From the IMG/VR virus record IMGVR_UViG_3300037245_003526, positions 1 through 24,296 of that record: DNA of 24,296 bases, one strand, 5' to 3'. The DNA comes from a virus. Position numbers and translations under genes: made by a program. Shown here in pieces: positions 71 to 24,296 of the stretch (position 1 is the first letter of the stretch; every line of letters starts with the position of its first letter). The notes beneath the pieces were generated by a model. The model searched no databases, was not told the origin of the DNA, and saw only the letters and a list, made by a program, of their open reading frames with translations.

Positions 71-484
71 ATGAAAAACTCTCTGGTTGAAGACTATCTT
101 GGAATGATTCAGGATTCCGAGATAGTCTCAGAGCTTGGTGTAAAAGGGGACTATGTTTTAATCGCAATGCTATCTGCTCAAGGTTGGACAGCATGGAGAA
201 AAATTGGTACTGGAAATGACAAAGCTCGAAAAAAATGTGGTACTTTTAAAATAAGTAATCAGAGAGATGCATGTATAGCAACAAATAGGATAAAATTTTG
301 TAAAGAACGAATTACTCTCATCAAGAAAGAAAAAAAGAAATGTGATGAGAAAAGGGATCCTAAAAAGTGTAGAAAAAATGCTGATGATAGAGTAGATTAC
401 GAAGAAGGTAAAATTAAAAAATATAAAAAACGTCTTGAAAAATTAAAAAAGAAGGGAAGGGGATATAACCCAAAAACTTACTAA
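71..484 (+). CDS. hypothetical protein, Lys/Cys-rich basic C-terminal half
   Basis: 137-aa ORF with AAGAGG 6-7 nt upstream of the ATG. Tightly packed with neighbours. No motif recognised. Confidence 0.6.
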   Translation: MKNSLVEDYLGMIQDSEIVSELGVKGDYVLIAMLSAQGWTAWRKIGTGNDKARKKCGTFKISNQRDACIATNRIKFCKERITLIKKEKKKCDEKRDPKKCRKNADDRVDYEEGKIKKYKKRLEKLKKKGRGYNPKTY

Positions 485-524
485 CCGAATTTCTTTATAA
501 ATCGAAAAAGAAAGGAGATGTACC

Positions 525-1325: not shown

Positions 1326-1488
1326 AGAATATAGACAGTTGCTGAGCGAGAATATATTCACATGTATAGAAGTCCTTCACCAAGGATATCTTGATATAAT
1401 GTATATGCCTGTAAAACGATTTTATGACATGCTTAAATGGAAATCAGATTTAGAGGACCAACGAGCAAAACTTATAAATAGTAAATAG
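1297..1488 (+). CDS. +1-frame coding continuation (VWHTRPQLIEEYRQLLSENIFTCIEVLHQGYLDIMYMPVKRFYDMLKWKSDLEDQRAKLINSK*). Possible frameshifted C-terminal extension of the 525..1325 product, or a homopolymer indel.
   Basis: The frame is open from 1285 to TAG at 1486-1488 in an AT-rich genome where stops are frequent. It reads like a helical protein. It has no ATG with a good SD before 1399. It ends 11 nt before the next gene's ATG, overlapping that gene's SD. The T6 run at 1290-1295 sits at the frame junction. Confidence 0.45.
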   Translation, partial: VWHTRPQLIEEYRQLLSENIFTCIEVLHQGYLDIMYMPVKRFYDMLKWKSDLEDQRAKLINSK

Positions 1489-1499
1489 GAGTATATATT

Positions 1500-1928
1500 A
1501 TGCCTTCAATGATAGATCTTTTTAATCAAAATGTAGTTGGTTCTAAAGGTTTCATCTCAGATTTTCTTCCTATAATATCCTCAAGTGGCGACTTTACTAG
1601 AGTAACAGAGCTTTCAGTTATAATATCTTCTTGGAATAATATATTATTAACACCTCTTAGAACTTATGTATATGATCCTGATTATGGTAGTGAATTATAT
1701 AAATATGTATTCGATCAAAATGATGATGAGACAGTTGATGATATAAAAGAAGAAGTAAGATATAGACTAACTAAATTTGATGATAGAGCAGTTATCACAA
1801 ATATTGAAGTAATCTTCATGAGAGATAGAAAAGGTTTCACAGTCAATATAGATTTCGTGTTTGGCGAGGAAGAGACTCGTATGAAGGTTAATATAGATGG
1901 TAATGTATACATAAGGTTTCTGGAGTAA
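1500..1928 (+). CDS. baseplate wedge protein, GPW/gp25-like
   Basis: 142 aa. The pattern IISSWNNILLTPLRTYVYDPDYGSELYKYVF...IKEEVRYRLTKFDDRAVITNIEV matches the GPW/gp25 signature (I..S...IL.T..G.R...P.fGs.l...lf ... EpR..v). Lies next to a baseplate-J-like gene. Confidence 0.8.
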   Translation: MPSMIDLFNQNVVGSKGFISDFLPIISSSGDFTRVTELSVIISSWNNILLTPLRTYVYDPDYGSELYKYVFDQNDDETVDDIKEEVRYRLTKFDDRAVITNIEVIFMRDRKGFTVNIDFVFGEEETRMKVNIDGNVYIRFLE

Positions 1929-1933
1929 ATATT

Positions 1934-2578
1934 ATGCAATTATGGTCTCGTCTCTATGATTATATTCATGAGTATCAACAACTAGTTTATGAATATTATG
2001 CTCATAGTGCTGTAGCATTTCAGACTACATACTGGAATATTAATAAAGATGTAACAGTATGGGATGATGAACAAATGTTTGGTGGTGCTTATGAAATGTT
2101 AGGTAGTTTATCTGGAGTTAAGTGGAACAAATATTTATTACTGCCTGTATATTTTTCAGAAGAAATAACAACAGCATTTGAGGGTACAGAGACTGGACTT
2201 ATAAAAGAGCAAGAAAGTAGTATTGTAATTCCTTCTGAATATGGTATAACCCCATATGCAGGAGATATAATAAAATTAGAACAAGAGTTTTTACGTCCAA
2301 CTAATGATAATTTTCCAATATTTGCTGTAACTGGAGTAGAACCTCATCCAAATACAGATAGAAGATTTTGGAAACTTAAAATAAAAGTAAATCAAAGTGA
2401 AACTGTAGATGATATTAACGATCAAACAGAGAATTCATATGCATTTTATGACTATGATAAAAAGATTCATACATTAGAAGAAGCTACAGATTTGACTAGA
2501 TTACTAATAAAAAATGAAACATTAAGGGAACGTTTAAAAAATATGTGGGATGAAAATTCAGGTCTTTATAATATTTAA
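1934..2578 (+). CDS. hypothetical protein (baseplate module by position)
   Basis: 214-aa ORF with a GGAG SD. Lies between the gp25-like and gp6/J-like genes with 5-11 nt gaps. Confidence 0.7.
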   Translation: MQLWSRLYDYIHEYQQLVYEYYAHSAVAFQTTYWNINKDVTVWDDEQMFGGAYEMLGSLSGVKWNKYLLLPVYFSEEITTAFEGTETGLIKEQESSIVIPSEYGITPYAGDIIKLEQEFLRPTNDNFPIFAVTGVEPHPNTDRRFWKLKIKVNQSETVDDINDQTENSYAFYDYDKKIHTLEEATDLTRLLIKNETLRERLKNMWDENSGLYNI

Positions 2579-2589
2579 AAGAGGCAATT

Positions 2590-5139
2590 ATGACTGACAA
2601 TACAGTATCTTCAGAAATATACCAAAGTCGAGATGCTACTAGAGATAAAATTATTGAACTTCTTCAGCGATACTTGGAGTTAGGTAATGTAGACTTGACA
2701 AAAACATCATTCCTATCATATGTTACGGATGTTATGTCTATACTTTCCTCAAATCTTATGTTTTACCAAGGTAATGTTTATAGAGAATTCTTTATGACAA
2801 AAGCTCAATTACCAGAGTCTATTTATAACTTAAGTTCTTTTATAGGTTATACTCCATCAGAAGCAAGTTATTCCTCTACAAATCTTCTTATAACAGTACC
2901 TCTACCTTTCAATGATACAAATATAACTTTTTCAATAGCAGATGGAAGAGATGGTAATTTTAAATTTCAAACATCCGATGGTATTAAATTTCTAACATAT
3001 TATACAACAACCGTAACTGTAATAAATAATAGTGATGTTACTATACAAATTGATCAAGATGGTAAACTTTATACCTTACCTGTTTATATTGATACAACTT
3101 CTGCTGATCAACAGTTTCAATTTGTACTACCTGTAAGACAATATAAAAGTACAAGATCTGAATTTATTATTGATCCTGATCTTCAACCAAATCAGTTTAC
3201 CAATATTGATGTTCCTATAGATGGTAAAGTTGCTGAAATGTCGGTGTATGTTAGGAACCCTGGAAGTGATGTAGACACCCTTGGTATGTTGTACGATGGC
3301 TCTTTTGATAGTCTATATTTAATGACTTCCTCTGATTATGGATATGTATCAAGAAACATATCTGAAGGTAAAAGATTATATTTTGGTAATGGAGTTATAG
3401 GACAACAACCTCTTCCTGGTTCTACAGTAATTGTATTCACTGACATAACAGAAGGGGAATCAGGTAACGTTATAGCTGGTTCTGTAACAACAGGTAGTAG
3501 AATATATACAATGGCTGGTGGTGCTTCAACAATAGTAAATTACACAGTAACAAATACTTCTCCTGCTACAGGTGGTAGTGATGAAGAGTCACTACAGGAA
3601 ATAAAACAAAATTCTATAGATAGTTTAACATCTCTAAATAGATTAGTTTCTGAAGGTGATTATGGTCATGTAAAAACTATAATTGAGGATGCTCCTATAG
3701 CTGAAAATTCTATAGCAGTATTAAAAAGATCTGATCTTAAAGTTAATGAAATTCAGTTATTCACTATTCTTAATTTCAATAATGAAATAGTTCCAACCAG
3801 AAATATATATTATTCAGTTCCCACTGGTACTACAGTAATTCCAAGAGATACTGTAATTACATTTGATGGAGTTGAATACATTACTATATTTGATATAGAA
3901 ATATCATCACTAAATACATATGCTGACTATGAATATAATCTACTACAACTACAAATTACACCTCTTTTAATACAAAGTTGGAGTAGTGCAAATCAAGATG
4001 CTTATAACTTTAACTCAAATGAATTATTAGTATCATATAATGATGCATCTGCAACTGTAACTTTTGAATTTTCATATTTTTCAGATGAAATAGATCGTAC
4101 TAATTGTTCTTGTGATTTAACAATTCTTTCTACAGATGATACTCGTGCTATGACAAATACTGCAAATGCAAATGGAGGAGTTTTTTCATACACATTTCCA
4201 AATTATACTGATATCCCGAAGGGAAGTCAGACGTATTATCTTACTGTAAGTAATTCAAACTTACCGATTCAACAATTAATATCACGATATTCTGCTTCCT
4301 TTATATTAAGACAGGATTTATCACCATTATATATGATGTCAAATACAGCGAATGATGGTACTACAACCATCATATATGATATACCAGGAATTAAAAAATC
4401 CTACTATGATAGTATTGATAAAATAGATTTTGAATCTGCTGTTATACAAGAATTTTTATCATCTATGGATTTAAAAGATTATAGAATGATGACTGATTTC
4501 ACTAATCTTAAATTCTGTAGTACTACTGGTAAGATGAATAATATGCTTTTAAATAAGAATAATAAGTTAGCAGTAAAAGACATGGGTTTAACTAGTATTC
4601 CTACATCTTTAACTACTGGGGACAGATATATTATAAGTGGTAATGAAGGAGGTACATGGACTGGTCATAGAGATGATATAGCAATTTGTACAGATTCTAC
4701 TGCTTCAACATGGACTTTTATAATGCCAAATGCTAATGATATTACATACGTTCAAAGTAAGAGTTCAAATTATATCTATACACAATATGGATGGAAAATA
4801 CCTCAATATGATATTCCTTTACAAATATCTATAGAACTATTTAGAATTCTTGATTCATCAATTACCGACGTTTCTTTAGTATATAATATACAAGCTGCTT
4901 TAGTTTCAGCATTTTCTAGTAGATTTGGTCCAAATTTAACTATTTATAGAACAGAAATAATAGAAGTTATTCAAGGAGTGACTGGGGTTTCCCATTGTAG
5001 ATTAATAGAACCAGAAAGTAGTGTTTTCTTTAATTTTGATCTTTTAGATTTTACAGAACAACAATTACTTGAATATGGTCCTGAATGGGTATATTTTGAA
5101 ATTGATGATATTACAATAAAAGTTCTTCCTGCGGAGTAG
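2590..5139 (+). CDS. baseplate J / T4 gp6-like baseplate wedge protein
   Basis: 849 aa. The internal motif SPATGGSDEESLQEIKQNS resembles the conserved GG.D.Es.e.lR segment of baseplate-J family proteins. Size and position after the gp25-like gene fit. Confidence 0.7.
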   Translation: MTDNTVSSEIYQSRDATRDKIIELLQRYLELGNVDLTKTSFLSYVTDVMSILSSNLMFYQGNVYREFFMTKAQLPESIYNLSSFIGYTPSEASYSSTNLLITVPLPFNDTNITFSIADGRDGNFKFQTSDGIKFLTYYTTTVTVINNSDVTIQIDQDGKLYTLPVYIDTTSADQQFQFVLPVRQYKSTRSEFIIDPDLQPNQFTNIDVPIDGKVAEMSVYVRNPGSDVDTLGMLYDGSFDSLYLMTSSDYGYVSRNISEGKRLYFGNGVIGQQPLPGSTVIVFTDITEGESGNVIAGSVTTGSRIYTMAGGASTIVNYTVTNTSPATGGSDEESLQEIKQNSIDSLTSLNRLVSEGDYGHVKTIIEDAPIAENSIAVLKRSDLKVNEIQLFTILNFNNEIVPTRNIYYSVPTGTTVIPRDTVITFDGVEYITIFDIEISSLNTYADYEYNLLQLQITPLLIQSWSSANQDAYNFNSNELLVSYNDASATVTFEFSYFSDEIDRTNCSCDLTILSTDDTRAMTNTANANGGVFSYTFPNYTDIPKGSQTYYLTVSNSNLPIQQLISRYSASFILRQDLSPLYMMSNTANDGTTTIIYDIPGIKKSYYDSIDKIDFESAVIQEFLSSMDLKDYRMMTDFTNLKFCSTTGKMNNMLLNKNNKLAVKDMGLTSIPTSLTTGDRYIISGNEGGTWTGHRDDIAICTDSTASTWTFIMPNANDITYVQSKSSNYIYTQYGWKIPQYDIPLQISIELFRILDSSITDVSLVYNIQAALVSAFSSRFGPNLTIYRTEIIEVIQGVTGVSHCRLIEPESSVFFNFDLLDFTEQQLLEYGPEWVYFEIDDITIKVLPAE

Positions 5140-13341: not shown

Positions 13342-13586
13342 GTTTGTTTATATCTTTTGTAGTTTTATATTAATCCTAAAAAGGGGTCGACACATGATTA
13401 TTCTTTTGAAGGAAATTGGCTATTGTGCAGGGATGATTTCATCAGTTTTTGTTAATGCTAAGAAGCAGGAGACTTCTCATTATGACTACAATTGGACTAT
13501 GTTGTGACAAAAATGATTTACAACCTAAGGGAGGTGTTATTTTCGTTTTAGAAGAAAATAAGATTAAAAAAACTTTAACCACGGAT

Positions 13587-13669
13587 TCACTGGATTGCAA
13601 TAGGTTAAGTAAAAACATCTTATTTTTAGCGGGATCAAGCTTATTATTTAACCTATTGCAATCCAGTGA
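13587..13669. repeat. perfect 22-bp inverted repeat (TCACTGGATTGCAATAGGTTAA / TTAACCTATTGCAATCCAGTGA) with a 39-nt spacer
   Basis: Arms at 13587-13608 and 13648-13669 are exact reverse complements. They lie in the 490-bp non-coding gap upstream of terL. Confidence 0.85.
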
Positions 13670-13739
13670 GTTTAGCTTAAATTTAATTATAAACAGAAAT
13701 GAGATATTCCCAATTCTGGGATATTTTATTGTACAAATT

Positions 13740-14972
13740 TTATACTGTTCTATTTGTTTTAACAAGCTCTAAAGCAGCAGTTGCTTCCCATCCTGCCTCA
13801 GTTCTATGTAATTTAATGTCAGTAGAAAGTAATATATATTTTTTTCCAATTGGTTTATGCTCTAAGGTTTTTATACCTAATAATATTGAAGCACCTACAT
13901 TTAATAATGGTTCAATTAAAATATTTTTTTCTATGTTAATTCTAGATCTTGTCATATCATAAATACTTTTAGCCATCATTGATTTAGCAAATACTTCTGA
14001 TTCACCAAATCCTCCATGAGCAATATAATAACGAATTCTTTCTAAATCTTTATGAATAGGAATTTCACTTCCATCACTGCATCCATTTTCTTGAGAAATA
14101 GTTTCTAAATCAAGTTCAATTGTTTCACTTAATTTATCGTCAGGAAGAACTATATGTTTTAAAGTTTTTCCATAATAACTAAATTTAGCATTACCTGTAT
14201 AAGAAGTGTGAATATTATCATATGTTAAAACTTTACTTTTATCTTCTTCTTTAAGTACTGGATTATCACTAGTAGTCATATGCTCTATAATCATTGATGG
14301 TTGTTTTAATATTTCTTCTGCTAAATTTCTTATAAAAATAGTATTATCATATCTACAAAATATTCCAGAGACACCCTCAAAAATACCAAATGTACTATCT
14401 ATATAATTGATAGCATCGTAAAGTGTTGTTGGTGGAATACATACTTGTTTTATAATATCTATACTATCTCCAGTTCCCCATTCAGTTTCCTCTACATTAG
14501 GAGCATATGTACTTATCATGTCGTCTATAATTTGTTTAGGAGTCATGGGACTCATATGAACTCCATAAACTTTATTTACCATAGTAGTCATCGTAATAAA
14601 TGGTATTCTAGTAACAGTTTGAATTCTCATAATAGTTCGATCTTCTTGACTTCCTGTTGCCATCTCAGTAGTCACGGGTACTTCAAATTCTGAAGAAATC
14701 ATAAGAAGATCAAGTTCAGTATTTTCTTTAATAGTTTCATCTTGACCCAATAAATCCAACTTCAAAGTAATTGTATCTTGACCATATAATTTATCTTTGA
14801 TTATTACGTGAGGTGGAATAAAAATTTCTAGAGTGACAGCGGTCCATGCTGATACTAATGAAGTCTCTATTCGAATTTCTTCAAGAAATTTAGAGTATAA
14901 TGTATCTTGATTATTATTAATAGAAAGAGTTATATCATAACTCCTAGTTGGTTGAAGTAATTTATCTACCAA
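13740..14972 (-). CDS. hypothetical protein (possible tail/baseplate hub-type structural protein; weak)
   Basis: 410-aa ORF with a TTG start 8 nt after AGGAGG. It overlaps the upstream 68-aa ORF by 11 nt. No diagnostic motif; the structural role is guessed from context only. Confidence 0.6.
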   Translation of the reverse strand: MVDKLLQPTRSYDITLSINNNQDTLYSKFLEEIRIETSLVSAWTAVTLEIFIPPHVIIKDKLYGQDTITLKLDLLGQDETIKENTELDLLMISSEFEVPVTTEMATGSQEDRTIMRIQTVTRIPFITMTTMVNKVYGVHMSPMTPKQIIDDMISTYAPNVEETEWGTGDSIDIIKQVCIPPTTLYDAINYIDSTFGIFEGVSGIFCRYDNTIFIRNLAEEILKQPSMIIEHMTTSDNPVLKEEDKSKVLTYDNIHTSYTGNAKFSYYGKTLKHIVLPDDKLSETIELDLETISQENGCSDGSEIPIHKDLERIRYYIAHGGFGESEVFAKSMMAKSIYDMTRSRINIEKNILIEPLLNVGASILLGIKTLEHKPIGKKYILLSTDIKLHRTEAGWEATAALELVKTNRTV

Positions 14973-15247: not shown

Positions 15248-15541
15248 TTAAGTTGTCATAGAAAATCTAGTCAATGAGTGGAGATTTTCAATTGTTTTTC
15301 CCATTATTTCAGAAAGTTTAATATTTAAAAAATCATCCTTTATAAGTTCCTTTTTTTGCTCCTCTGATAATTTTGCCTCATCAATTTTAGCTTCTAAAGA
15401 CCATGTATCGAATGGGATTAATATTTCCTCTTTATCAAATATCACTCTAATATCACATTCAAGACCAAATGTTAATTTTTCAGAATATCCATACATTCCG
15501 TTTGTTGTTTCTTCAGCAAAACATTCTATTTGTAACTTCAT
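15248..15541 (-). CDS. hypothetical acidic protein
   Basis: 97-aa ORF with a GGAGGGG SD. Followed by a terminator. Confidence 0.65.
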   Translation of the reverse strand: MKLQIECFAEETTNGMYGYSEKLTFGLECDIRVIFDKEEILIPFDTWSLEAKIDEAKLSEEQKKELIKDDFLNIKLSEIMGKTIENLHSLTRFSMTT

Positions 15542-15850: not shown

Positions 15851-17047
15851 TTATTCATAATTTCTAACTGCTTCTCCTACAGGTTGTTGAGGAACCATAT
15901 CATCACTATATTCAGCAAATTTTACAGTTAATGGTTCTCCTATATAACTATTAAGATTACGATACATTTCTTGACGTTTTTCAACTGTACCTTTAGGACG
16001 AACATCAAATGTTAATCCTCCTTCAGTAACACATCTGAATACTATACATCCTTCATCAGTGCCTGTTCCTTCTTTTCCTCCAACGATATCAAATTCAGCA
16101 GTTTTAAATCCCTTAACTTTTTCAAGATCCTTAGAGTTATACTCAAACATATAGTGACCATCTTTGTTTCTTAACATTCCTCCTTCGAATCCCATAGAAA
16201 CCCATTTATCATGCCGAAGTTTTGCTTCTTTATATGAATTGACAGTTATGGTTTTTACCAGACGAATAGTTGGGGATGTACGTTCATTAATCAACATTTC
16301 ATTTAGAATACTAAGTCTTTCAGAAAAATGTAAAGTAGTATTAGGATAATCATAAATCCAATATTCAAGCTTATGTGCATCTGGTTTAAGGTCTTTTGTA
16401 TATGAACCTATCTTTTGTAAAGACCAATCATGATTATATAACTCACCATGAACCATCTCATTAACATTAAGAATATCATTAAGTTTATCAGTGAAATGTT
16501 CAAGAGTATGAAATAAATGACCTCCTCGTGAATGATAACAAATACCTTCTTCCATATCTTCATTTACCGGATGAAGTAAACCTTTATGTATTGCCCATGA
16601 TATATATTCATGGGAATATTGTTTAAATGAAGGTTCGGAAGCATATTTTCTAGCCATGCAACACACTCCATTTAACTTTGGTTGCATATAACATGGAAAT
16701 TTAATCTTACCTTTTTTAACACCTTTAGCTAATTGAGGAAGAATAATCCTTGGAACATAATTTTTTACATCAATTTGAAATTCATAATTAGCATCTCTTT
16801 TTGTATTAAACTCAGAAACCGCCATATTAACTGCTTGTTTAAAAGGAGTTGTTTCATTTGATTTTCCTATGTTCTTTCCTTTTTTAACATGATTAATATT
16901 TTCTCTAATCTTTCCACCTATTTGACCAGATTCCCTAATCAAAAAAGCAGTTTTATCATCCTGTTCCTCAACTTTAACTTTCCATTTTTGAACCTTTCCT
17001 GTTGAACTTATACCAAATAACATTGGTTGTTCAGCTGCTCTATTCAT
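15851..17047 (-). CDS. ATP-dependent DNA ligase
   Basis: Nucleotidyltransferase motifs occur in order: QPKLNGVC (motif I, KxNG instead of KxDG), HGELY (III), EGGMLRN (IV), LEKVKGFKTAEFDIV (V). A C-terminal OB-like tail follows. The N-terminal domain carries GKNIGKSNETTPFKQA. Start placed at 17047 (MNRAAEQP) because it forms an ATGA overlap with the upstream stop and follows AAAGGGGG. The ORF track's longer start is 17077. Confidence 0.85.
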   Translation of the reverse strand: MNRAAEQPMLFGISSTGKVQKWKVKVEEQDDKTAFLIRESGQIGGKIRENINHVKKGKNIGKSNETTPFKQAVNMAVSEFNTKRDANYEFQIDVKNYVPRIILPQLAKGVKKGKIKFPCYMQPKLNGVCCMARKYASEPSFKQYSHEYISWAIHKGLLHPVNEDMEEGICYHSRGGHLFHTLEHFTDKLNDILNVNEMVHGELYNHDWSLQKIGSYTKDLKPDAHKLEYWIYDYPNTTLHFSERLSILNEMLINERTSPTIRLVKTITVNSYKEAKLRHDKWVSMGFEGGMLRNKDGHYMFEYNSKDLEKVKGFKTAEFDIVGGKEGTGTDEGCIVFRCVTEGGLTFDVRPKGTVEKRQEMYRNLNSYIGEPLTVKFAEYSDDMVPQQPVGEAVRNYE

Positions 17048-17361
17048 TTGACCCCCTTTATTTTTTTTACTTTCCAACCAGAAGTTTTAAATTTCTTAAT
17101 AACCTTTTGACATTCTTCATAAACATCACCATGATAATATCTTGCTGCTCCAGTTATATTACTTTTTATAAAAAATTTATTTTTTTGTACATCATAAAGT
17201 AAAGCATCAGTATAAAAATCTATCCTTTTATCTCTAATGTACATCTTAGGTTTAGGTTCAATAGGTAATTCAATCTCTTTTGTAATTATGTATCTCAAAT
17301 TTTCTTTACTACCTACATCCTCTGAATAACATTTAATTTCAATATTACATTTATACAACAT
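17044..17361 (-). CDS. hypothetical protein
   Basis: 105-aa ORF with AAGGAGGTG SD. Its stop overlaps the ligase start. Confidence 0.65.
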   Translation of the reverse strand: MLYKCNIEIKCYSEDVGSKENLRYIITKEIELPIEPKPKMYIRDKRIDFYTDALLYDVQKNKFFIKSNITGAARYYHGDVYEECQKVIKKFKTSGWKVKKIKGVK

Positions 17362-20201: not shown

Positions 20202-20576
20202 CTAATACCCTCCTTCTCCCTTAATAATTGTTATATTTTCAGGTACACTTCCTTCCTCTATTCCCTCATGACAAAGTGTAATCTCTGCACCTCCTCCTCC
20301 ATCACCTTCATCTGATGCTTGGAAGATTAATACTGTACCACCTCCTTCAATAATTTGTTTACATTGTTCATATTCTTCATTTTTATCAAAATAGTTTTCT
20401 TTCCATAATTCATCAAGCTGAGTAATAGTTTTTGCAACTTCTGAACCATGATCACTATATTCTACTTCATATACTGTAGTAATTGTTATAGGAACACTTT
20501 TAGCATTAGGATCCTTAATACCTAAAATAAATGAAGCACTTGATGAATTAGTTACAAAGTCTCCCTTGATTTTCAT
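20202..20576 (-). CDS. small acidic protein, TNSSS-leader paralog 1 (MKIKGDFVTNSSSASF...)
   Basis: 124-aa ORF. The GGAGGG SD lies inside the end of the upstream lipoprotein gene. The N-terminal 16 aa are shared with the 21809..22198 and 23525..23884 products. Confidence 0.8.
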   Translation of the reverse strand: MKIKGDFVTNSSSASFILGIKDPNAKSVPITITTVYEVEYSDHGSEVAKTITQLDELWKENYFDKNEEYEQCKQIIEGGGTVLIFQASDEGDGGGGAEITLCHEGIEEGSVPENITIIKGEGGY

Positions 20577-21191: not shown

Positions 21192-21809
21192 TTATTTAAT
21201 TCTTTCAGCAATAAATCTAAGATAAATATCTCTACCATCAAATTCAAAATTTTCATCAAGATGCATTAATCTAAATCTTCCTTCATAGGTAAAGAAAAAG
21301 TTAGCTCGTTCTTTTGTCCATATTGAAGCATGTGGGCAAGATGGTTCATTAAGGAGTTCATAGGTGAGAGTTATGTTATGCTTTAAAAAATCAATATCTA
21401 ATACTTTCTCATTTAAAAGCATGTTTGCTAAAATTTTATAATTAGGAACAATTATATCAAGTATCCCTCCTATTTTTAAAGCAGTACTCATTTGATAGAT
21501 AGCAGATAAGACATCACTCTCAGGGATATGTTCAAGAAATCTATATGCAACTATCTTATCAACTTGAAAATTAATTCCATTTAAAACTTTAAACACATCA
21601 TCATCAAGATATATAATTCTGCTTTTATCTCTTGGTTCATCCTCTATTGACCATCTAGTTACCATATCCCTAAGATCTGCTAATCTTTCCCCAGTAAAAT
21701 AACCAGTATCAATATTAATAAGAAAATATGGATTCTTCAACTCCAAAGGTAATAGTTTACCTGCTCCTAAATTTAAAATAACTTCTTCTCTCATTCTACC
21801 CCCTTTCAT
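21192..21809 (-). CDS. class I SAM-dependent methyltransferase (substrate unknown)
   Basis: VILNLGAG (motif I), INID (acidic end of beta-2), DKIVAYRFLEHI and LKIGGILDIIVPN match the Methyltransf_11/23-type fold. No DPPY/NPPY or PCQ/ENV DNA-methyltransferase motifs were seen. The first ATG overlaps the upstream stop (TAATG). An alternative start at 21794 (MREEV) follows AAGGGGG. Confidence 0.75.
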   Translation of the reverse strand: MKGGRMREEVILNLGAGKLLPLELKNPYFLINIDTGYFTGERLADLRDMVTRWSIEDEPRDKSRIIYLDDDVFKVLNGINFQVDKIVAYRFLEHIPESDVLSAIYQMSTALKIGGILDIIVPNYKILANMLLNEKVLDIDFLKHNITLTYELLNEPSCPHASIWTKERANFFFTYEGRFRLMHLDENFEFDGRDIYLRFIAERIK

Positions 21810-22198
21810 TAACCATTATAACCACAATATGTTTGAGATGTTACTTCATCAATTGTTATGATAATTCCTTTTTCCTTTAGTTGTTTTACCACTCTTTCTT
21901 TTAACTGAGAAACAGTTTCATCATCCTTCATTTGAAAAGGGGATATTCCAATTTGAATACAATCACCATCATAATCATGATAATTAATTAGATCATTTCC
22001 CTTGCATACTAATTCTCCCAATTCATACATTTCTAGAGTCTCAGTAGTTAAGGCAGGATTTTCCGGATTGTCTTCGTTATGAAGAATAACCAATTCTTTA
22101 TCATATTCTTTTTTAAATTGGTAATCCTCCTTCAATATACCCCACGCTACAAAAGATGTAGATGAACTATTTGTTACAAAATCTGCTTTTAATTTCAT
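21809..22198 (-). CDS. small acidic protein, TNSSS-leader paralog 2 (MKLKADFVTNSSSTSF...)
   Basis: The ORF track starts at 22213 (MKGNNMKLK...). I place the start at 22198 because AAAGGA lies 6 nt upstream and the two paralogs start exactly at MK.K.DF. Confidence 0.8.
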   Translation of the reverse strand: MKLKADFVTNSSSTSFVAWGILKEDYQFKKEYDKELVILHNEDNPENPALTTETLEMYELGELVCKGNDLINYHDYDGDCIQIGISPFQMKDDETVSQLKERVVKQLKEKGIIITIDEVTSQTYCGYNG

Positions 22199-22238
22199 AT
22201 TATTTCCTTTCATTTTTTTAGTAAATAGACGGAATAAT

Positions 22239-22279: not shown

Positions 22280-22352
22280 TCATAACAATGGGAATCGAAC
22301 CCATGTTCTCATGTTTATCAGACATGTGCTTAACCAATTAAGCTATGTTATA
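22280..22352 (-). tRNA. tRNA-Ile (anticodon GAT)
   Basis: Cloverleaf drawn by eye. Acceptor TATAACA/TGTTATG (U1:G72 wobble), D-arm GCTT-AATTGGTT-AAGC, anticodon arm CATGT-CTGATAA-ACATG, variable AGAAC, T-arm ATGGG-TTCGATT-CCCAT, discriminator A. CCA is not encoded. Confidence 0.9.
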
Positions 22353-22353
22353 T

Positions 22354-22461
22354 TGGTGCAGTTACGTTAATAACCGCAGGGTTACATCAAAAATGCTTTT
22401 CATTGAGTACCAATCTAAATATGACAAATATCCCTTTGCTCTACCGCTGAGCTACACGCCA
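22354..22461 (-). ncRNA. tRNA-like RNA: canonical tRNA 5' acceptor strand and D-arm, then non-tRNA sequence ending in a 7-bp hairpin plus ACCA
   Basis: The minus strand from 22461 reads TGGCGTG TA GCTC AGCGGTA GAGC A AAGGG... No T-arm and no matching acceptor 3' strand follow. The RNA ends GCGGTTA-TTAACG-TAACTGC-ACCA (22377->22354), 1 nt before the tRNA-Ile 5' end. Confidence 0.5.
22402..22413. repeat. direct repeat copy 1 (ATTGAGTACCAA)
   Basis: 11/12 identical to 22554-22565. On the minus strand it contains a D-loop-like TTGGTAC box that starts exactly 60 nt before the encoded CCA end at 22354. Confidence 0.7.
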
Positions 22462-22471
22462 GTAATTAAAA

Positions 22472-22499
22472 AATTATATAAACTTTAATTTATATAATT
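22472..22499 (-). other. A/T-only perfect 11-bp hairpin in the linker between tRNA 3' and 5' fragments
   Basis: AATTATATAAA-(6 nt)-TTTATATAATT. On the minus strand it is followed by TTTTAATTAC and then the acceptor 5' strand. Confidence 0.7.
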
Positions 22500-22505
22500 A
22501 TGTAA

Positions 22506-22533
22506 TGGCTGGCGTGACGGGATTTGAACCCGT
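22506..22533 (-). ncRNA. tRNA 3' fragment: T-arm, acceptor 3' strand, discriminator G and encoded CCA
   Basis: The minus strand reads ACGGG-TTCAAAT-CCCGT CACGCCA G CCA. No complementary acceptor 5' strand or D-arm lies upstream of it. Its complement, TGGCGTG, lies 44 nt downstream instead. Confidence 0.6.
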
Positions 22534-22553
22534 GCATAGAGAAAAATTATATG

Positions 22554-22565
22554 ATTAAGTACCAA
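22554..22565. repeat. direct repeat copy 2 (ATTAAGTACCAA)
   Basis: 11/12 identical to 22402-22413, offset 152 bp. The minus-strand TTGGTAC box starts exactly 60 nt before the encoded CCA end at 22506. Confidence 0.7.
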
Positions 22566-22634
22566 CTATTGGGCAACAATGCATTTATAAGCTTGTTGGT
22601 TCGTAATTTAAAATAAGGATAATCTATCTGTGGA

Positions 22635-22652
22635 TCCAACATAATTGTTGGA
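22635..22652 (-). other. 7-bp perfect hairpin (TCCAACA-TAAT-TGTTGGA) in the non-coding leader upstream of the tRNA fragments
   Basis: Exact inverted repeat. It is enclosed by a longer-range complementary pair TTGGTTC (22596-22602) / GAACCAA (22684-22690). Each of those heptamers sits next to a copy of TATAAGCTTG. Confidence 0.5.
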
Positions 22653-22721
22653 CAGAAATAATGAGGAATATAAGTATAAGCTTGAACCAATTTCAATAAT
22701 ATGTTCTCATCAATTAAGTAA

Positions 22722-23510
22722 TTATCCCTTAATTGCGCCATGTATGTAACTAAATATTTCTTTACCAACCTGACGAGATTCAACTTCAGTTCCATTTGCT
22801 CTTTGCCTTGACCTCTTTATTGCTCGAGCAAGTTTATCAATCCTGGCAAGAATTGCTGATTTCTGAGATGGGGAAACCATACCGCACCATCTGTGTGTTG
22901 AATATTCACCAATTGCACTATTCTCAACCCACTCTTTTATCTGGGCAGGATGATGATCAGTGGCATCGTACATAACCTTACTTTGCTGAGTTTTTTCAGT
23001 TTTCTGATCCTTAACCATATTATCATCCTGAAATACTCCTTCACCAATATCAGGAGCTTCTACCCATTTTATTCCAGGAGGAAGTGTAGGAATCTTGCTA
23101 TAAACATCCCTGAGTGTACTCAACTCATACTCCATTTCAAGAAGAAATGTAACTGGAACATTTTCTGCTATTGTAATTCCATCCACAGCTATGTCCGATT
23201 TAGCAAGACAGTTTCCACTTTCCTTTTGAAGCTTGGCATCCCAGAATTTTATGAAGCTCTCGGACATATAGTCAAGTTTATCCTGAACTGTTGTGGTGAT
23301 TTCCTGATGTTCTTCAGTATTCTCTTTTTGTCTGGCATCATCAAACATCCTTAAACTACGATGCTGACCATGAAAATGAGAGACTCTCTTTAAAAATGTT
23401 TGCTCAGTCTCAGTTTTGATTTTTTCTTTTGCTCCTTTGAGACTTCCTACCACTGCCAAAATTTCGTGTAAAACTGGTTTTTTCTTAGACATTTTAAATT
23501 TTCCTTTCAT
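22722..23510 (-). CDS. hypothetical protein (262 aa), higher GC than neighbours
   Basis: Uninterrupted ORF. The first ATG has no SD. An alternative start at 23492 (MSKKKP) lies 9 nt after AAAGGA. No motif I can name. Confidence 0.75.
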   Translation of the reverse strand: MKGKFKMSKKKPVLHEILAVVGSLKGAKEKIKTETEQTFLKRVSHFHGQHRSLRMFDDARQKENTEEHQEITTTVQDKLDYMSESFIKFWDAKLQKESGNCLAKSDIAVDGITIAENVPVTFLLEMEYELSTLRDVYSKIPTLPPGIKWVEAPDIGEGVFQDDNMVKDQKTEKTQQSKVMYDATDHHPAQIKEWVENSAIGEYSTHRWCGMVSPSQKSAILARIDKLARAIKRSRQRANGTEVESRQVGKEIFSYIHGAIKG

Positions 23511-23524
23511 TAAATTAAAGTTGA

Positions 23525-23884
23525 TTAATCATGCTGAATTTCTATTCCTACTACTTTAAAACCATAAGCATCTTGATATTCAGATACAAAAGTATCAAGA
23601 GCTAGATACTTCATATAATCTGGTATATCTTCATAACCATTGTACATGGACGTCCATTCCTCTATAATAAAAGTATTTGGTTTTGAGTCCTCTTTAATAT
23701 CTGATCCATCCCAAAACCTCATATTTTTAGAAAATCCATGCCAATTATCGTTACCCTTAAACCATTCAATAAACTTACCGAATTGGTTTTTAAACTCTTC
23801 AATACCCGTATCTTCTTTTGTCTCCACTGTTAAAACAAAAGATGCAGAAGAACTATTTGTAATGAAGTCTGCTTTTGCTTTCAT
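23525..23884 (-). CDS. small acidic protein, TNSSS-leader paralog 3 (MKAKADFITNSSSASF...)
   Basis: 119-aa ORF with a strong AAGGAGGGAGGTG SD. Shares its N-terminal 16 aa with the other two paralogs. Confidence 0.8.
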   Translation of the reverse strand: MKAKADFITNSSSASFVLTVETKEDTGIEEFKNQFGKFIEWFKGNDNWHGFSKNMRFWDGSDIKEDSKPNTFIIEEWTSMYNGYEDIPDYMKYLALDTFVSEYQDAYGFKVVGIEIQHD

Positions 23885-23897: not shown

Positions 23898-24296
23898 TTA
23901 ATGATTGTTTTCCGCTATTATTATTAAATTGGGTGTTTCTATATTTATACCCGCCATATCCATAGCTCCAGAAAATTTTGTTCCAGAGATTTCACCATCA
24001 TTATCACCAATACCAATTGCAAAAACTGAATTAAAACCCTCTGCTTTTAATTCAATTATATTTTCTATAATATTATCATCAAAAGCTTCATCTAATGTTT
24101 TTATATTTGGAAACATCCAATGCTTCTTTTCACCTGGTTTATCTTCTCTTATACTCATATCAAGTTGTCGTATAAGGTCCCAAATATTGAATGAATAATC
24201 CCATAATTGATTATTAACCTTATCTTCAATTGTAGTTTTATTATTAATAAGAGCTTTATATAAATTAATCTTATCACCCTTAAATATAAAGATATA
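23898..24296 (-). CDS. hypothetical protein, N-terminus outside the window
   Basis: The ORF track starts at M (24158), but the same frame stays open to the window edge (...YIFIFKGDKINLYKALINNKTTIEDKVNNQLWDYSFNIWDLIRQLD-MSIRED...). The gene is therefore probably longer and truncated by the window. Confidence 0.65.
   Translation of the reverse strand, partial: YIFIFKGDKINLYKALINNKTTIEDKVNNQLWDYSFNIWDLIRQLDMSIREDKPGEKKHWMFPNIKTLDEAFDDNIIENIIELKAEGFNSVFAIGIGDNDGEISGTKFSGAMDMAGINIETPNLIIIAENNH

What the first reader, a model, noticed from the sequence alone, without database searches (positions are those of the whole stretch)
22437..22541. tRNA halves in permuted order: T-arm/acceptor-3'/CCA lies upstream of the matching acceptor-5'/D-arm
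On the transcribed (minus) strand the order is as follows. First comes ACGGG-TTCAAAT-CCCGT CACGCCA G CCA (22533->22506). Next is a 44-nt A/T-only linker with a perfect 11-bp hairpin. Last is TGGCGTG TA GCTC-AGCGGTA-GAGC A (22461->22437). The two acceptor strands are perfectly complementary over 7 bp, or 8 bp counting the flanking C:G. I found no acceptor 5' strand upstream of the 3' fragment and no T-arm downstream of the 5' fragment. This is the topology of circularly permuted tRNA genes (described in the red alga Cyanidioschyzon merolae) and of two-piece tmRNA genes; I do not know of it in phages. In a linear transcript the acceptor strands plus linker would form one long hairpin flanked by T and D hairpins. 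The caveat is that I cannot draw a convincing anticodon arm. AAGGG (22436->22432) pairs with CTCT (22541->22538) over only 4 bp, leaving a 3-nt variable loop. Alternatively it pairs with CCCT (22381->22378) 50 nt downstream. A rearranged pseudogene therefore remains possible.
Basis: seen in the sequence. Interest (0 to 1): 0.7.

Follow-up and report, generated by a model that had tools for sequence, protein, structure and literature searches.

The report
Phage tRNA-mimic RNA beside DUF7873
The apparent "back-to-front tRNA" is a conserved, unannotated phage non-coding RNA that copies the elbow and acceptor end of a tRNA but has a long stem instead of an anticodon arm; it lies just downstream of an uncharacterised protein gene (DUF7873) in 79 of the 91 phage and metagenome loci searched, so it is a functional tRNA mimic and not a broken gene.

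Summary
On the minus strand, T-arm, acceptor-3' strand, G and CCA (22533-22506) lie 44 nt upstream of the complementary acceptor-5' strand and D-arm (22461-22438).

It is not a decaying pseudogene, a decoding permuted tRNA or a tmRNA. The flanks pair into a long stem where the anticodon arm would be. This is the architecture of bacterial YrlA-type Y RNAs, the only notable Rfam hit (33 bits, below the 69-bit threshold).

The same module lies 100-900 nt downstream of a DUF7873 gene, on the same strand, in 79 of 91 loci. These include cultured Klebsiella, Ralstonia, Rhizobium, Vibrio and Gordonia phages.
- All seven acceptor pairs covary (99.8% paired).
- The 15:48 tertiary pair covaries.
- U8, A14 and G18G19 are invariant.
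- CCA follows the discriminator in 64 of 80.

It differs from YrlA. There is no Ro60 gene from about 10 kb upstream (close relatives) to 22 kb downstream (window), no GNCGAA motif, and a different conserved stem motif. One contig carries a near-canonical YrlA with Ro60 and, next to it, DUF7873 with its own RNA.

Most likely this is a YrlA-like tRNA mimic partnered with DUF7873, probably nicked by RNase P to expose a CCA end (inferred). I rate it a new variant of a known kind.

The parts
22722..23510 (-). DUF7873 gene (262-aa ORF). Relatives start at the internal MSKKKP, giving 256 aa. It is the conserved upstream neighbour and presumed protein partner of the RNA.
   Evidence: Pfam PF25283, E = 6.6e-70. 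63 homologues. 2553 clusters at 50% identity. The AF2 model has pLDDT 91.6 and no informative structural match.
22586..22607 (-). Conserved leader motif ATTACGAACCAACAAGCTTATA. It is the window's version of the family-wide hairpin with a CnACAGCTTTA loop.
   Evidence: Nearly invariant among the five close relatives. In other loci the hairpin stem changes in step between loci on reading (ATTGCC/GGCAAT, CTTGCC/GGCAAG, ATGCC/GGCAT, GACC/GGTC; not counted formally) around a conserved loop.
22538..22583 (-). 5' strand of the long closing stem. It includes the invariant AATAGTTGGTAC (22570-22559) and UCUCU (22542-22538), which sits in the position of the anticodon-stem 3' strand.
   Evidence: MFE and constrained folds. 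Compensatory changes in relatives. The four closing pairs nearest the junction are 80-88% paired, with many pair types.
22534..22537 (-). Variable-loop equivalent AUGC. C22534 is position 48, the Levitt partner of G15.
   Evidence: 15:48 is G:C in 62, A:U in 15 and other in 2 of 80 family members.
22517..22533 (-). T-arm: ACGGG / TTCAAAT / CCCGT.
   Evidence: Sequence. The T stem is 99.8% paired, with 4 of 5 pairs covarying. Relatives show ACGGG/CCCGT changing to ATGGG/CCCAT and GTGGG/CCCAC.
22506..22516 (-). Acceptor 3' strand CACGCCA (22516-22510), discriminator G (22509), encoded CCA (22508-22506).
   Evidence: Sequence. CCA follows the discriminator in 64 of 80 family members.
22462..22505 (-). 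44-nt linker with its own hairpin (arms 22499-22489 and 22482-22472). It stacks on the acceptor stem in the primary transcript. Predicted to be removed after RNase P cleavage between 22462 and 22461.
   Evidence: Fold. The hairpin is kept through compensatory and wobble changes in L110-L112. Linker length ranges from 4 to 80 nt across the family. Cleavage is inferred.
22455..22461 (-). Acceptor 5' strand TGGCGTG.
   Evidence: 7/7 complementary to 22516-22510. All 7 pairs covary across 80 sequences and are 99.8% paired. A67:U6 changes to G:C in L111 and L112.
22437..22454 (-). U8-A9, D-arm GCUC / AGCGGUA / GAGC, and A26.
   Evidence: Sequence. The D stem is 96.9% paired. U8, A14 and G18G19 are invariant in 80/80. 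The 25-nt 5' half is identical to phage tRNA-Asn(GTT) genes.
22383..22436 (-). 3' strand of the long closing stem. It includes AGGGA (22435-22431) and the conserved GGTACTCAATGAAAAG (22411-22396; helix with a bulged U plus a GAAAA internal loop).
   Evidence: Folds. TCAATGAAA is invariant in relatives, while the adjacent GUAC helix covaries. The same motif TACTCAAYGAAAG is seen in many other loci.
22280..22352 (-). Ordinary tRNA (Ile, GAT) 30 nt downstream, on the same strand and probably in the same transcript. It is context, not part of the mimic.
   Evidence: ARAGORN and Rfam tRNA, 68.4 bits. In many loci a tRNA gene follows the RNA.

Best explanation
Window 22383-22583 (minus strand), probably with a leader starting near 22607, encodes a structured non-coding RNA of about 200-225 nt. 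It belongs to a large, previously undescribed phage family of tRNA mimics.

The RNA folds as a four-way junction. It has a true T-arm, a true D-arm and a 7-bp acceptor stem followed by discriminator and CCA. In place of the anticodon arm, its own 5' and 3' ends pair into a long imperfect stem that carries a conserved internal-loop motif.

This is the architecture of YrlA-type bacterial Y RNAs. The RNA is genetically coupled to DUF7873, the gene just upstream on the same strand, and not to Ro60. It most likely forms a ribonucleoprotein with DUF7873 (inferred by analogy with Ro60 and YrlA, which show the same gene-RNA adjacency).

The acceptor stem is closed only by a dispensable linker that varies from 4 to 80 nt. 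CCA is encoded, and U is the commonest nucleotide at -1. From this I infer that host RNase P cuts at the 5' end of the acceptor-5' strand (between 22462 and 22461) and that 3' exonucleases trim the linker back to CCA (22506). The product would be a nicked, two-piece, L-shaped tRNA look-alike with a free CCA end and no anticodon.

Shown here: the sequence, the fold, family-wide conservation and covariation, and the linkage to DUF7873.

Inferred: transcription as one RNA, RNase P processing, binding to DUF7873, and the downstream role. My guess for that role is engaging or decoying tRNA-binding host factors in tRNA or RNA quality control or repair.
For: 1. Architecture. The MFE fold is a four-way junction, z = -6.1. 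Rfam's only notable hit is YrlA, across the full model, at 33.4 bits and E = 1.5e-5.

2. Family. Model R1, built without the window, finds the module on the same strand just downstream of DUF7873 in 79 of 91 loci. Four of the 12 misses have no downstream sequence to search. An independent regex and pairing scan found the same elements.

3. Covariation.
- Acceptor stem: 99.8% paired, 7 of 7 pairs with double changes.
- T stem: 99.8% paired. D stem: 96.9% paired.
- Covariation score 0.826, against 0.208 for shuffles (0 of 500 reach it) and 0.17 or less for slid registers.

4. Tertiary fold. The 15:48 pair switches from G:C to A:U (62 and 15 cases, 2 exceptions; Fisher p = 2.5e-14, not corrected for shared ancestry). 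U8, A14 and G18G19 are invariant. Chen et al. used the same signature for YrlA (PMC4201824).

5. Close relatives. Loci with 99, 87, 72 and 70% DUF7873 identity keep the element, with compensatory changes in the T stem, acceptor stem, linker hairpin and long stem.

6. CCA follows the discriminator in 64 of 80 (chance about 1 in 64 each). U is at -1 in 39 of 80, and TAT precedes +1 in 30 of 80.

7. Precedent. M. smegmatis YrlA has a 7-bp acceptor stem, is cleaved by RNase P, and receives CCA in vivo (PMC4201824).

8. Neighbourhood theme. The loci sit in tRNA clusters. Among large neighbouring ORFs there are three CCA-adding enzymes, one RtcB and one Ro60.

9. Cultured phages carry it in unannotated gaps: phiRSL1, Klebsiella vB_KpM_FBKp24, Rhizobium RHph_TM30, Vibrio D472 and Gordonia GodonK.
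Against: - No expression data. Transcript ends, RNase P cleavage and DUF7873 binding are all untested.
- The promoter-like site at 22696-22667 is no better than chance, and no terminator was found. The RNA could be part of the DUF7873 mRNA and downstream tRNA transcript.
- In members with long linkers the CCA is base-paired inside an extended hairpin. That is less favourable for RNase P.
- 16 of 80 members lack CCA.
- DUF7873 has no recognisable RNA-binding fold or any informative structural match.
- Alignment A5 was fitted to the model, and relatedness among sequences inflates shuffle-based significance.
- Six of eight protein-agnostic hits with this topology lack DUF7873. The topology alone is therefore not specific to DUF7873.
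Confidence: 0.75

Rival explanations
1. It is a canonical Ro60-dependent YrlA Y RNA. Its Ro60 partner would be encoded elsewhere in the phage or by the host, and DUF7873 would be only a bystander neighbour.
For: The best Rfam hit is YrlA. The topology is the same, and so is the Levitt-pair covariation. In L037 a Ro60 gene directly abuts DUF7873. Phage Ro60 with Y RNAs is established (PMC4201824, PMC12135203).
Against: - The score of 33.4 bits is well under the 69-bit gathering score.
- The GNCGAAN0-1G Ro60-contact motif is absent. The aligned residues are CAUAUAAUUUUU.
- No TROVE or Ro60 hit appears among the window ORFs scanned by Pfam, which lie downstream (7 of 11 ORFs of 90 aa or more upstream of position 17000, and 10 ORFs beyond it; the ORFs at 23898-24158, 71-484, 1500-1928, 13442-13765 and 15248-15541 were not scanned), or in 10 kb upstream in close relatives.
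- Only 1 of 49 large neighbouring ORFs across the family is Ro60.
- L037 has its own near-canonical YrlA (60.7 bits, with a CCGAAUG motif) in addition to the DUF7873-type RNA. The two are distinct.
- The DUF7873 linkage holds in 79 of 91 loci.
Confidence: 0.1
2. It is a cis-acting processing and stability element and not a trans-acting RNA. A tRNA-like 'punctuation' mark would direct RNase P to separate the DUF7873 mRNA from the downstream tRNA genes and leave a structured, protected mRNA 3' end.
For: The module always lies downstream of DUF7873 on the same strand (median about 165 nt from the stop codon to the T-arm). It is often followed by tRNA genes. No convincing promoter of its own was found. 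The encoded RCCA and the U at -1 fit RNase P recognition.
Against: A simple RNase P site would need no conserved long stem with a sequence-specific internal loop. It would also need no conserved upstream hairpin loop and no D-arm with an intact set of tertiary contacts. Two tandem modules occur in phiRSL1, FBKp24 and GodonK. An ordinary tRNA could serve as punctuation.
Confidence: 0.1
3. It is a true circularly permuted tRNA gene. The ends would be joined, by circularisation or trans-ligation, to create an anticodon loop, yielding a decoding tRNA-Asn-like molecule.
For: The order 3' half, CCA, linker, 5' half matches permuted tRNA genes. The 5' half is identical to phage tRNA-Asn genes and the discriminator is G. 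A ligase gene lies in the window (15851-17077), and RtcB neighbours one family member.
Against: - No anticodon loop can be drawn. The flanks form a stem about 45 nt long on each strand, with conserved internal loops and no 7-nt loop.
- No bulge-helix-bulge motif was seen in the folds (by inspection; no motif search was run).
- Nothing resembling a conserved anticodon is seen at the junction in the loci I read (by inspection, not counted).
- Acceptor and D-arm identities differ between loci (Asn-, Glu- and Leu-like, read) while the long-stem motif stays constant. That points to one shared non-decoding function.
Confidence: 0.03
4. It is a rearranged or decaying tRNA remnant: a tandem duplication of tRNA-Asn that lost the outer halves, or an ordinary junction between two tRNA genes.
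For: Tandem tRNAs are a known source of false YrlA-like hits (PMC4201824). The halves resemble tRNA-Asn. 72 of 80 generic pattern hits in viral contigs were exactly such tandem junctions.
Against: - Neither flanking half of a tRNA exists.
- The two acceptor strands are mutually complementary, unlike the 72 tandem junctions (0-6 of 7 pairs).
- The arrangement is conserved with compensatory substitutions, from 99% relatives down to DUF7873 homologues of about 31% identity in the loci used for the pair counts (about 25% in the weakest phage match, where the module was not found).
Confidence: 0.02
5. It is a two-piece (permuted) tmRNA.
For: The gene order is permuted, with an encoded CCA. There is a weak partial Rfam tmRNA_permuted hit of 15.5 bits.
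Against: ARAGORN reports no tmRNA. 15.5 bits is far below the 47-bit threshold. Position 3:70 is G:C, not G:U. A full D-arm is present. Only about 85 nt separate the D-arm from the next tRNA, and most of that pairs with the 5' strand, leaving no room for a tag frame or pseudoknots.
Confidence: 0.01

Closest known systems
YrlA-type bacterial and phage Y RNAs (Rfam RF02553; Chen et al. 2014, PMC4201824)
   Same: - The order of elements is the same: 5' stem strand, variable-loop equivalent, T-arm, acceptor-like stem-loop, D-arm, 3' stem strand.
- The tRNA tertiary-contact nucleotides are conserved, and the 15:48 Levitt pair shows the same G:C to A:U covariation.
- The RNA gene sits next to its partner protein gene on the same strand.
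- The M. smegmatis member has a 7-bp acceptor stem, is cut by RNase P and carries CCA.
- YrlA also occurs in phages.
   Different: - The neighbour is DUF7873 (about 250 aa, alpha/beta, no HEAT ring or vWA domain), not Ro60.
- There is no GNCGAAN0-1G motif. The stem instead carries AGTWRTTGGTA / TACTCAAYGAAAG, which is a different motif.
- CCA is genome-encoded in 80% of members.
- The linker is long and variable.
- An extra upstream hairpin and hexamer repeats are present.
- The Rfam score is half the gathering threshold.
- Both types coexist as separate genes in contig L037.
Circularly permuted tRNA genes (Cyanidioschyzon merolae and other algae); comparison from my own knowledge
   Same: The 3' half with the T-arm and acceptor strand lies upstream of the 5' half with the acceptor strand and D-arm. 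A removable intervening sequence joins the acceptor ends and is processed by RNase P and 3' end-processing enzymes.
   Different: Those genes yield complete decoding tRNAs. Their termini form a bulge-helix-bulge motif, are ligated into a circle and recreate an anticodon (or other) loop. Here there is no anticodon, no bulge-helix-bulge motif was seen in the folds (by inspection), and the ends form a long conserved stem.
Two-piece tmRNA from permuted ssrA genes (alpha-proteobacteria, cyanobacteria); comparison from my own knowledge
   Same: The gene order is permuted, with an encoded CCA upstream of the 5' acceptor strand. Excision of the intervening segment gives two base-paired RNA pieces, and a long helix replaces the anticodon stem.
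   Different: There is no tag reading frame, no pseudoknots and no G3:U70 alanine identity. A full D-arm is present. The element is not detected by ARAGORN or by the Rfam tmRNA models.
Thermus phage phiLo Ro60 with Yrl1/Yrl2 (PMC12135203)
   Same: A phage-encoded Y-like RNA lies beside its protein partner and is proposed to hijack host RNA-metabolism enzymes.
   Different: Those RNAs were identified by a CGAA motif in a stem-bulge-stem structure and bind Ro60. No DUF7873 is reported there.

Membership tests
YrlA (RF02553) Y RNA | tRNA-like module in the order T-arm, acceptor-like stem-loop, D-arm, closed by pairing of the RNA's 5' and 3' ends | tested here: met
   cmscan aligns the full model 1-114. 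The MFE is a four-way junction. Helices are supported by covariation.
YrlA (RF02553) Y RNA | Conserved tRNA tertiary-interaction nucleotides, including a covarying 15:48 Levitt pair | tested here: met
   G15:C48 in 62, A15:U48 in 15, exceptions in 2. U8, A14 and G18G19 in 80/80. The window has G15 and C48.
YrlA (RF02553) Y RNA | Reaches Rfam's curated gathering score (69 bits) | tested here: not met
   33.4 bits in the window. 30.1 bits in L005. 30.7 bits for the DUF7873-type RNA of L037, against 60.7 bits for that contig's Ro60-linked element.
YrlA (RF02553) Y RNA | GNCGAAN0-1G motif near the 5' end (presumed Ro60 contact; PMC4201824) | tested here: not met
   The model positions holding the motif align to CAUAUAAUUUUU. 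The nearest look-alike, TACGAACC at about 22605-22598, lacks both G's.
YrlA (RF02553) Y RNA | Encoded within about 4 kb of a Ro60/Rsr (TROVE) gene on the same strand | tested here: not met
   No TROVE or vWA_Ro60 hit among the 20 window ORFs scanned, including all ORFs of 90 aa or more between 17044 and 23884. None within 10 kb upstream in L109 and L111. Only L037 among 49 large neighbouring ORFs across the family.
YrlA (RF02553) Y RNA | Bound by Ro60 in vivo | not testable with these tools
   Needs immunoprecipitation.
Circularly permuted tRNA gene | 3' half (T-arm, acceptor-3') upstream of 5' half (acceptor-5', D-arm), with complementary acceptor strands joined by an intervening sequence | tested here: met
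   7/7 pairs.
Circularly permuted tRNA gene | Termini recreate a standard loop (an anticodon arm of 5 bp plus a 7-nt loop) through a bulge-helix-bulge junction, giving a complete decoding tRNA | tested here: not met
   The flanks form a stem about 45 nt long on each strand, with internal loops and no terminal 7-nt loop. No anticodon-like triplet is seen at the junction in the loci I read (by inspection).
Circularly permuted tRNA gene | Circular RNA intermediate or joined mature species | not testable with these tools
   Needs RT-PCR with outward-facing primers or RNA-seq.
Two-piece (permuted) tmRNA | Detected by tmRNA models, with a tag reading frame and pseudoknots | tested here: not met
   ARAGORN finds none. 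Rfam tmRNA_permuted gives 15.5 bits against 47, and tmRNA gives 15.1 against 47.
Two-piece (permuted) tmRNA | G3:U70 alanine identity pair in the acceptor stem | tested here: not met
   The window has G3:C70 (TGGCGTG / CACGCCA). The third acceptor pair is U:G in 2 of 80 family sequences and G:U in none (column pair 34:141).
DUF7873-linked tRNA-mimic RNA (family defined here) | Module lies 100-900 nt downstream of a DUF7873 gene on the same strand | tested here: met
   In the window, 188 nt separate the stop codon from the T-arm. 79 of 91 loci fit.
DUF7873-linked tRNA-mimic RNA (family defined here) | Scores well above tandem-tRNA junctions with model R1, which was built without the window | tested here: met
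   60.3 bits. Tandem junctions score 37 bits or less.
DUF7873-linked tRNA-mimic RNA (family defined here) | Discriminator plus CCA encoded after the acceptor 3' strand | tested here: met
   G-CCA at 22509-22506. 64 of 80 in the family.
DUF7873-linked tRNA-mimic RNA (family defined here) | Long closing stem with the motif pair AGTWRTTGGTA / TACTCAAYGAAAG | tested here: met
   AATAGTTGGTAC at 22570-22559 and GGTACTCAATGAAAAG at 22411-22396. The motif is present in many but not all loci, so it defines a subgroup and not the whole family.

The most novel reading that the evidence does not exclude
DUF7873 and this RNA would form a new, widespread phage ribonucleoprotein. In it the RNA is cut by host RNase P into a two-piece, anticodon-less tRNA look-alike with a genuine, possibly aminoacylatable, CCA end. 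The particle would act as a decoy or adaptor for host factors that recognise the tRNA elbow and acceptor end. Candidates are defence toxins that modify or cleave tRNA 3' ends, CCA-adding or repair enzymes, EF-Tu and aminoacyl-tRNA synthetases. That would make it a Ro60-independent counterpart of Y RNPs used in phage-host conflict.
Probability: 0.15. Interest if true: 0.85.

Novelty: new variant of a known kind. Interest (0 to 1): 0.62.

Why it matters
**Scale and annotation.** A highly structured RNA sits unannotated in many phage genomes. DUF7873 forms 2553 clusters at 50% identity, matches 157 IMG/VR contigs, and occurs in 70 records of cultured phages infecting Klebsiella, Vibrio, Rhizobium, Ralstonia, Gordonia, Serratia, Arthrobacter and cyanobacteria. 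In at least one genome part of the RNA is annotated as a suppressor tRNA, apparently wrongly.

**Biology.** Y-RNA-like tRNA mimicry is not restricted to Ro60 systems. The finding also gives the DUF7873 family its first functional lead, an RNA partner.

**Testability.** The encoded CCA and the RNase P-friendly context suggest a naturally nicked tRNA mimic. That bears on how phages manipulate or protect the tRNA pool, which is currently a central theme in phage defence and counter-defence. Several carrier phages are in culture, so the predictions can be tested directly.

**Annotation pipelines.** A covariance model for this family would prevent false tRNA calls and fill the gaps that follow DUF7873 genes.

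Tried and rejected
- **Near-identical DNA in cultured phages.** blastn of 1.4 kb found only a 60-nt tRNA match. An exact 28-mer of the 3' half is absent from IMG/VR. The exact DUF7873 protein is not on record, so the source contig could not be extended directly. The 99% relative L109 was used instead.
- **Integration-site (att) duplication.** I considered this for the split tRNA and rejected it. The halves are 44 nt apart, and their order is the opposite of attL/attR remnants.
- **Intron-containing tRNA or direct-repeat recombination.** I considered the TTGGTACTYAAT repeat that flanks the element. It turned out to be the two strands of a conserved, partly palindromic helix.
- **The 82-aa ORF 22547-22795 overlapping the RNA's 5' strand.** It has no Pfam or PHROG hit and is not called in relatives. 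I treat it as spurious.
- **Conserved protein neighbours other than DUF7873.** BLAST clustering found none shared by more than about 10 loci.
- **Promoter and terminator scan.** Nothing above chance.
- **Complete-genome check.** I did not check a complete carrier genome for the absence of any TROVE gene.
Full report
**1. Observation**

Read on the minus strand, the window contains these elements in order:
- T-arm ACGGG-TTCAAAT-CCCGT (22533-22517)
- CACGCCA (22516-22510), G (22509), CCA (22508-22506)
- a 44-nt A/T-rich linker (22505-22462) with an 11-bp hairpin (22499-22489 / 22482-22472)
- TGGCGTG (22461-22455), TA, and D-arm GCTC-AGCGGTA-GAGC (22452-22438)

The only slip is that the linker contains two C and one G, so it is not strictly A/T-only.

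ARAGORN and Rfam at gathering thresholds see only the ordinary tRNA-Ile(GAT) at 22352-22280. The 25-nt 5' half is identical to the 5' half of tRNA-Asn(GTT) genes in four IMG/VR contigs. With the G discriminator, the module looks Asn-derived.

**2. What the local fold shows**

The 161 nt around the element fold into a four-way junction (-45.5 kcal/mol, z = -6.1, 0 of 200 shuffles as stable). It has four arms:
- the T hairpin
- one long hairpin made of the acceptor stem plus the linker
- the D hairpin
- a closing stem formed by the sequences 5' of the T-arm and 3' of the D-arm

The closing stem begins with UCUCU/AGGGA in the position of the anticodon stem. It then continues for about 45 nt on each strand, to roughly 22583 and 22383. 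There is no 7-nt loop, so there is no anticodon.

In Rfam's permissive mode the only notable hit is YrlA, the bacterial Y-RNA-like family. It aligns over the whole model at 33.4 bits, E = 1.5e-5, against a gathering score of 69.

YrlA RNAs are Ro60-bound tRNA mimics whose order of elements is exactly stem-5', T-arm, acceptor-like hairpin, D-arm, stem-3' (PMC4201824). That explains the 'permuted' appearance without any permutation of a tRNA gene.

**3. It is a conserved family tied to DUF7873**

The gene immediately upstream on the same strand (22722-23510) is a clear member of Pfam DUF7873 (E = 6.6e-70).
- A 41%-identical homologue in IMG/VR contig L005 is followed about 130 nt later by the same arrangement with a completely different acceptor sequence, still perfectly paired (CGTCGGC / GCCGACG).
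- I collected DUF7873 loci from IMG/VR (157 relatives, 80 kept), from MAG contigs (19) and from cultured phages (70 records).
- A simple regex-plus-pairing scan and then covariance model R1, built from 28 short-linker members without the window, find the module on the same strand just downstream of DUF7873 in 79 of 91 non-duplicate loci.
- Four of the 12 misses have fewer than 200 nt of downstream sequence. Two more have modules that the regex scan detected.
- The window scores 60.3 bits. Real tandem-tRNA junctions, the known false positive for this topology, score 37 bits or less.

**4. Covariation**

On the 80-sequence alignment A5:

| Helix | Cells paired | Pairs with changes on both sides |
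|---|---|---|
| Acceptor stem | 99.8% | 7 of 7 |
| T stem | 99.8% | 4 of 5 |
| D stem | 96.9% | 4 of 4 |
| Closing helix, four pairs nearest the junction | 80-88% | 4 of 4 |

The covariation score is 0.826. Column shuffles give 0.208 (0 of 500 reach the observed value), and sliding the register gives 0.17 or less.

The tertiary Levitt pair covaries: G15:C48 in 62 sequences, A15:U48 in 15, and two exceptions. U8, A14 and G18G19 are invariant. So the RNA is under selection to adopt the tRNA L-shape.

Two caveats apply. A5 was fitted to the model, and the statistics are not corrected for phylogeny. The independent regex result and the close-relative comparison point the same way.

**5. Close relatives**

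Contigs whose DUF7873 is 99, 87, 72 and 70% identical (L109-L112) all keep the element (59-63 bits). The five-way alignment shows compensatory changes:
- T stem: ACGGG/CCCGT changes to ATGGG/CCCAT and to GTGGG/CCCAC.
- Acceptor stem: A67:U6 changes to G:C.
- Linker hairpin: AATTATATAAA/TTTATATAATT changes to AAGTTTATAAA/TTTATAAACTT.
- GUAC helix of the long stem: it also changes in step.

Meanwhile AATAGTTGG, TCAATGAAA and ATTAYGAACCAACAAGCT stay invariant. This refutes the pseudogene fallback.

**6. Features beyond the core**

*Encoded CCA and the -1 position.* CCA follows the discriminator in 64 of 80 members, and CCT in 9. U is the commonest nucleotide at -1, and 'TAT' precedes +1 in 30 of 80.

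*Linkers.* They fall into two styles:
- short and unstructured (NCCA, an A-rich run, then TAT)
- long hairpins that stack on the acceptor stem, sometimes pairing the CCA

*Long-stem motif.* Many members share AGTWRTTGGTA on the 5' strand and TACTCAAYGAAAG on the 3' strand. This forms a helix with a bulged U next to a purine-rich internal loop.

*Upstream hairpin and repeats.* A small hairpin has a stem that changes in step between loci on reading (not counted formally) and a conserved CnACAGCTTTA loop. Directly after the DUF7873 stop codon come runs of hexamer-periodic repeats (CAGCTT/TAGCCT, GAGACT and TATACT types), often preceded by TTTGGG. I could not explain these repeats. They could be protein-binding sites.

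*Downstream genes.* Ordinary tRNA genes frequently follow.

**7. Relation to Ro60 and YrlA**

The window has no TROVE or Ro60 hit among the 20 ORFs I scanned. Its close relatives have none in the 10 kb upstream. The Ro60-contact motif GNCGAAN0-1G is absent.

Among 49 neighbouring ORFs of at least 380 aa across the family, Pfam finds three CCA-adding enzymes (L031, L038, L043), one RtcB (L105) and one Ro60 (L037).

L037 is the most informative contig. It carries, in order:
- a near-canonical YrlA (60.7 bits, closed 4-nt acceptor loop, CCGAAUG motif)
- a Ro60 gene
- DUF7873, overlapping the Ro60 stop codon
- the DUF7873-type RNA, which scores 30.7 bits on the YrlA model

The two RNA types are therefore distinct but probably work in related pathways.

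A protein-agnostic DNA pattern scan of IMG/VR returned 80 loci:
- 72 were tandem tRNAs with non-complementary acceptor strands, and none had DUF7873.
- 8 had 7/7 complementary strands. Of these, 2 lie next to DUF7873, 1 next to Ro60, and 2 next to DUF2828/DUF7788 proteins. For 3 the neighbour is unknown.

So the topology recurs with several partner proteins, and DUF7873 is one hitherto unrecognised partner class.

**8. DUF7873 itself**

It is a single-domain protein of about 250 aa, with 2553 clusters at 50% identity. It is confidently modelled (pLDDT 91.6) as long helices packed on beta-sheets. It has no informative match in the PDB or BFVD, no PHROG family and no literature. It is not a HEAT-repeat ring.

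**9. Mechanism I consider most likely**

*Shown:* a conserved L-shaped tRNA mimic lacking an anticodon, encoded next to DUF7873.

*Inferred:*
- It is transcribed with or just after DUF7873.
- Host RNase P recognises the T-arm, the 7-bp acceptor stem and RCCA, and cuts between 22462 and 22461.
- Exonucleases trim the linker to CCA at 22506, with CCA-adding enzyme as a back-up.
- The two pieces stay paired through the acceptor stem and the long stem.
- DUF7873 binds the conserved stem loop and/or the leader repeats.

The precedent is M. smegmatis YrlA, which is cleaved by RNase P and carries CCA in vivo (PMC4201824). The biological role is unknown. The genomic company (tRNA clusters, CCA-adding enzyme, RtcB, Ro60) points to tRNA or RNA quality control, or to decoying factors that read the tRNA elbow and 3' end.

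**10. Cultured carriers and annotation**

- phiRSL1 (ORF270), Klebsiella phage vB_KpM_FBKp24 (gp365) and Gordonia phage GodonK (gp204) each have two tandem modules.
- Rhizobium phage RHph_TM30 and Vibrio phage D472 have one.
- All sit in unannotated gaps.
- In FBKp24, part of the second module (T-arm and acceptor 3' strand) is annotated as the 3' half of a 'tRNA-Sup-TTA'. On reading the sequence, that looks like a false call.

**11. Verdict**

This is a new variant of the YrlA kind of tRNA-mimic RNA, with a new protein partner, an encoded CCA and its own stem motif. I found no description of it in the searchable literature. That library is incomplete, so prior description elsewhere cannot be excluded.

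Noticed in passing
window 22280-22352 (minus); L109 10235-10307; L110 1782-1854; L111 11179-11250; L112 2442-2516: The ordinary tRNA just downstream has the same body in close relatives but a different anticodon triplet. The window reads CT-GAT-AA (Ile). The 99%- and 87%-identical relatives read CT-ACA-AA ('Cys' with an unusual A34). L111 has an odd loop, and L112 reads GAG. A three-base anticodon swap between near-identical phages is unexplained.
   Followed up: partly
window about 22721-22608 (minus); the same position in most DUF7873 loci: Right after the DUF7873 stop codon there are runs of hexamer-periodic repeats. They are often preceded by TTTGGG and end in a small hairpin whose loop repeats the motif (CnACAGCTTTA). 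Examples are CAGCGT-TAGCCT-CAGCTT, GAGACT x3 and CTTATA x2-3; the window has AGCTTATACTTATATTCC and GATTATCCTTATTTTAAATTA. CAGCTT occurs in 25 of 70 intergenic regions and in 0 of 70 control regions. Possibly a protein-binding array; function unknown.
   Followed up: partly
window 20202-20576, 21809-22213, 23525-23884 (all minus): Three small paralogous proteins (119-134 aa) share an N-terminal motif, K(A/G)DF(V/I)TNSSS(A/T)SF. They have no Pfam or PHROG hit. Homologues sit near DUF7873 in other contigs as well: clusters 4 (8 loci) and 16 (5 loci), with examples in L007, L009, L010 and L013.
   Followed up: no
L233 (Klebsiella phage vB_KpM_FBKp24, NC_061421.1) 4004-4148: The GenBank 'tRNA-Sup-TTA' (ARAGORN 'tRNA-Stop') call uses the T-arm and acceptor 3' strand of the second tRNA-mimic module as its 3' half. 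The true complementary acceptor 5' strand (AGGCAGA) and D-arm lie downstream of the CCA. The suppressor tRNA is probably a mis-annotation.
   Followed up: partly
L106 (phiRSL1) from 3886 and from 4104; L233 3848-3931 and 4049-4148; L234 (GodonK) 3847-3923 and 3999-4074: Three large phages (122-307 kb) carry two tandem modules after DUF7873. In phiRSL1 and FBKp24 the first has a class-II-like D-arm (TGGCGRAAYTGGTAGACGC, Leu/Tyr-like) and the second a class-I D-arm. The first phiRSL1 module lacks CCA.
   Followed up: partly
L037 (IMGVR_UViG_3300017963_000201) 435-3942: One contig carries a near-canonical YrlA (60.7 bits), a Ro60 homologue (1401-3005), DUF7873 (2995-3756, overlapping the Ro60 stop codon) and the DUF7873-type RNA (3866-3942). 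The arrangement looks like a composite operon of two tRNA-mimic RNPs.
   Followed up: yes
L125 848-2275 (minus) and L151 5422-7140 (minus): Two further phage contigs have a closed YrlA-like module next to proteins with Pfam DUF2828 hits (L125 strong, plus DUF7788; L151 weak, E = 7e-4, below the curated cut-off), not Ro60 or DUF7873. These may be another partner class for tRNA-mimic RNAs.
   Followed up: partly
L109 1916-2770 and 6322-7341; L111 229-4132 and 8612-9610 (upstream context of the window's lineage): Close relatives encode a FolE2-type GTP cyclohydrolase (PF02649), a radical-SAM protein and a large protein with RNA polymerase beta (Rpb2) domains. This suggests 7-deazaguanine-type nucleotide modification genes and a phage multisubunit RNA polymerase.
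   Followed up: no
window 22547-22795 (minus): [quoted passage not shown] It has no family hit and is not called in relatives, so it is probably not a gene.
   Followed up: yes
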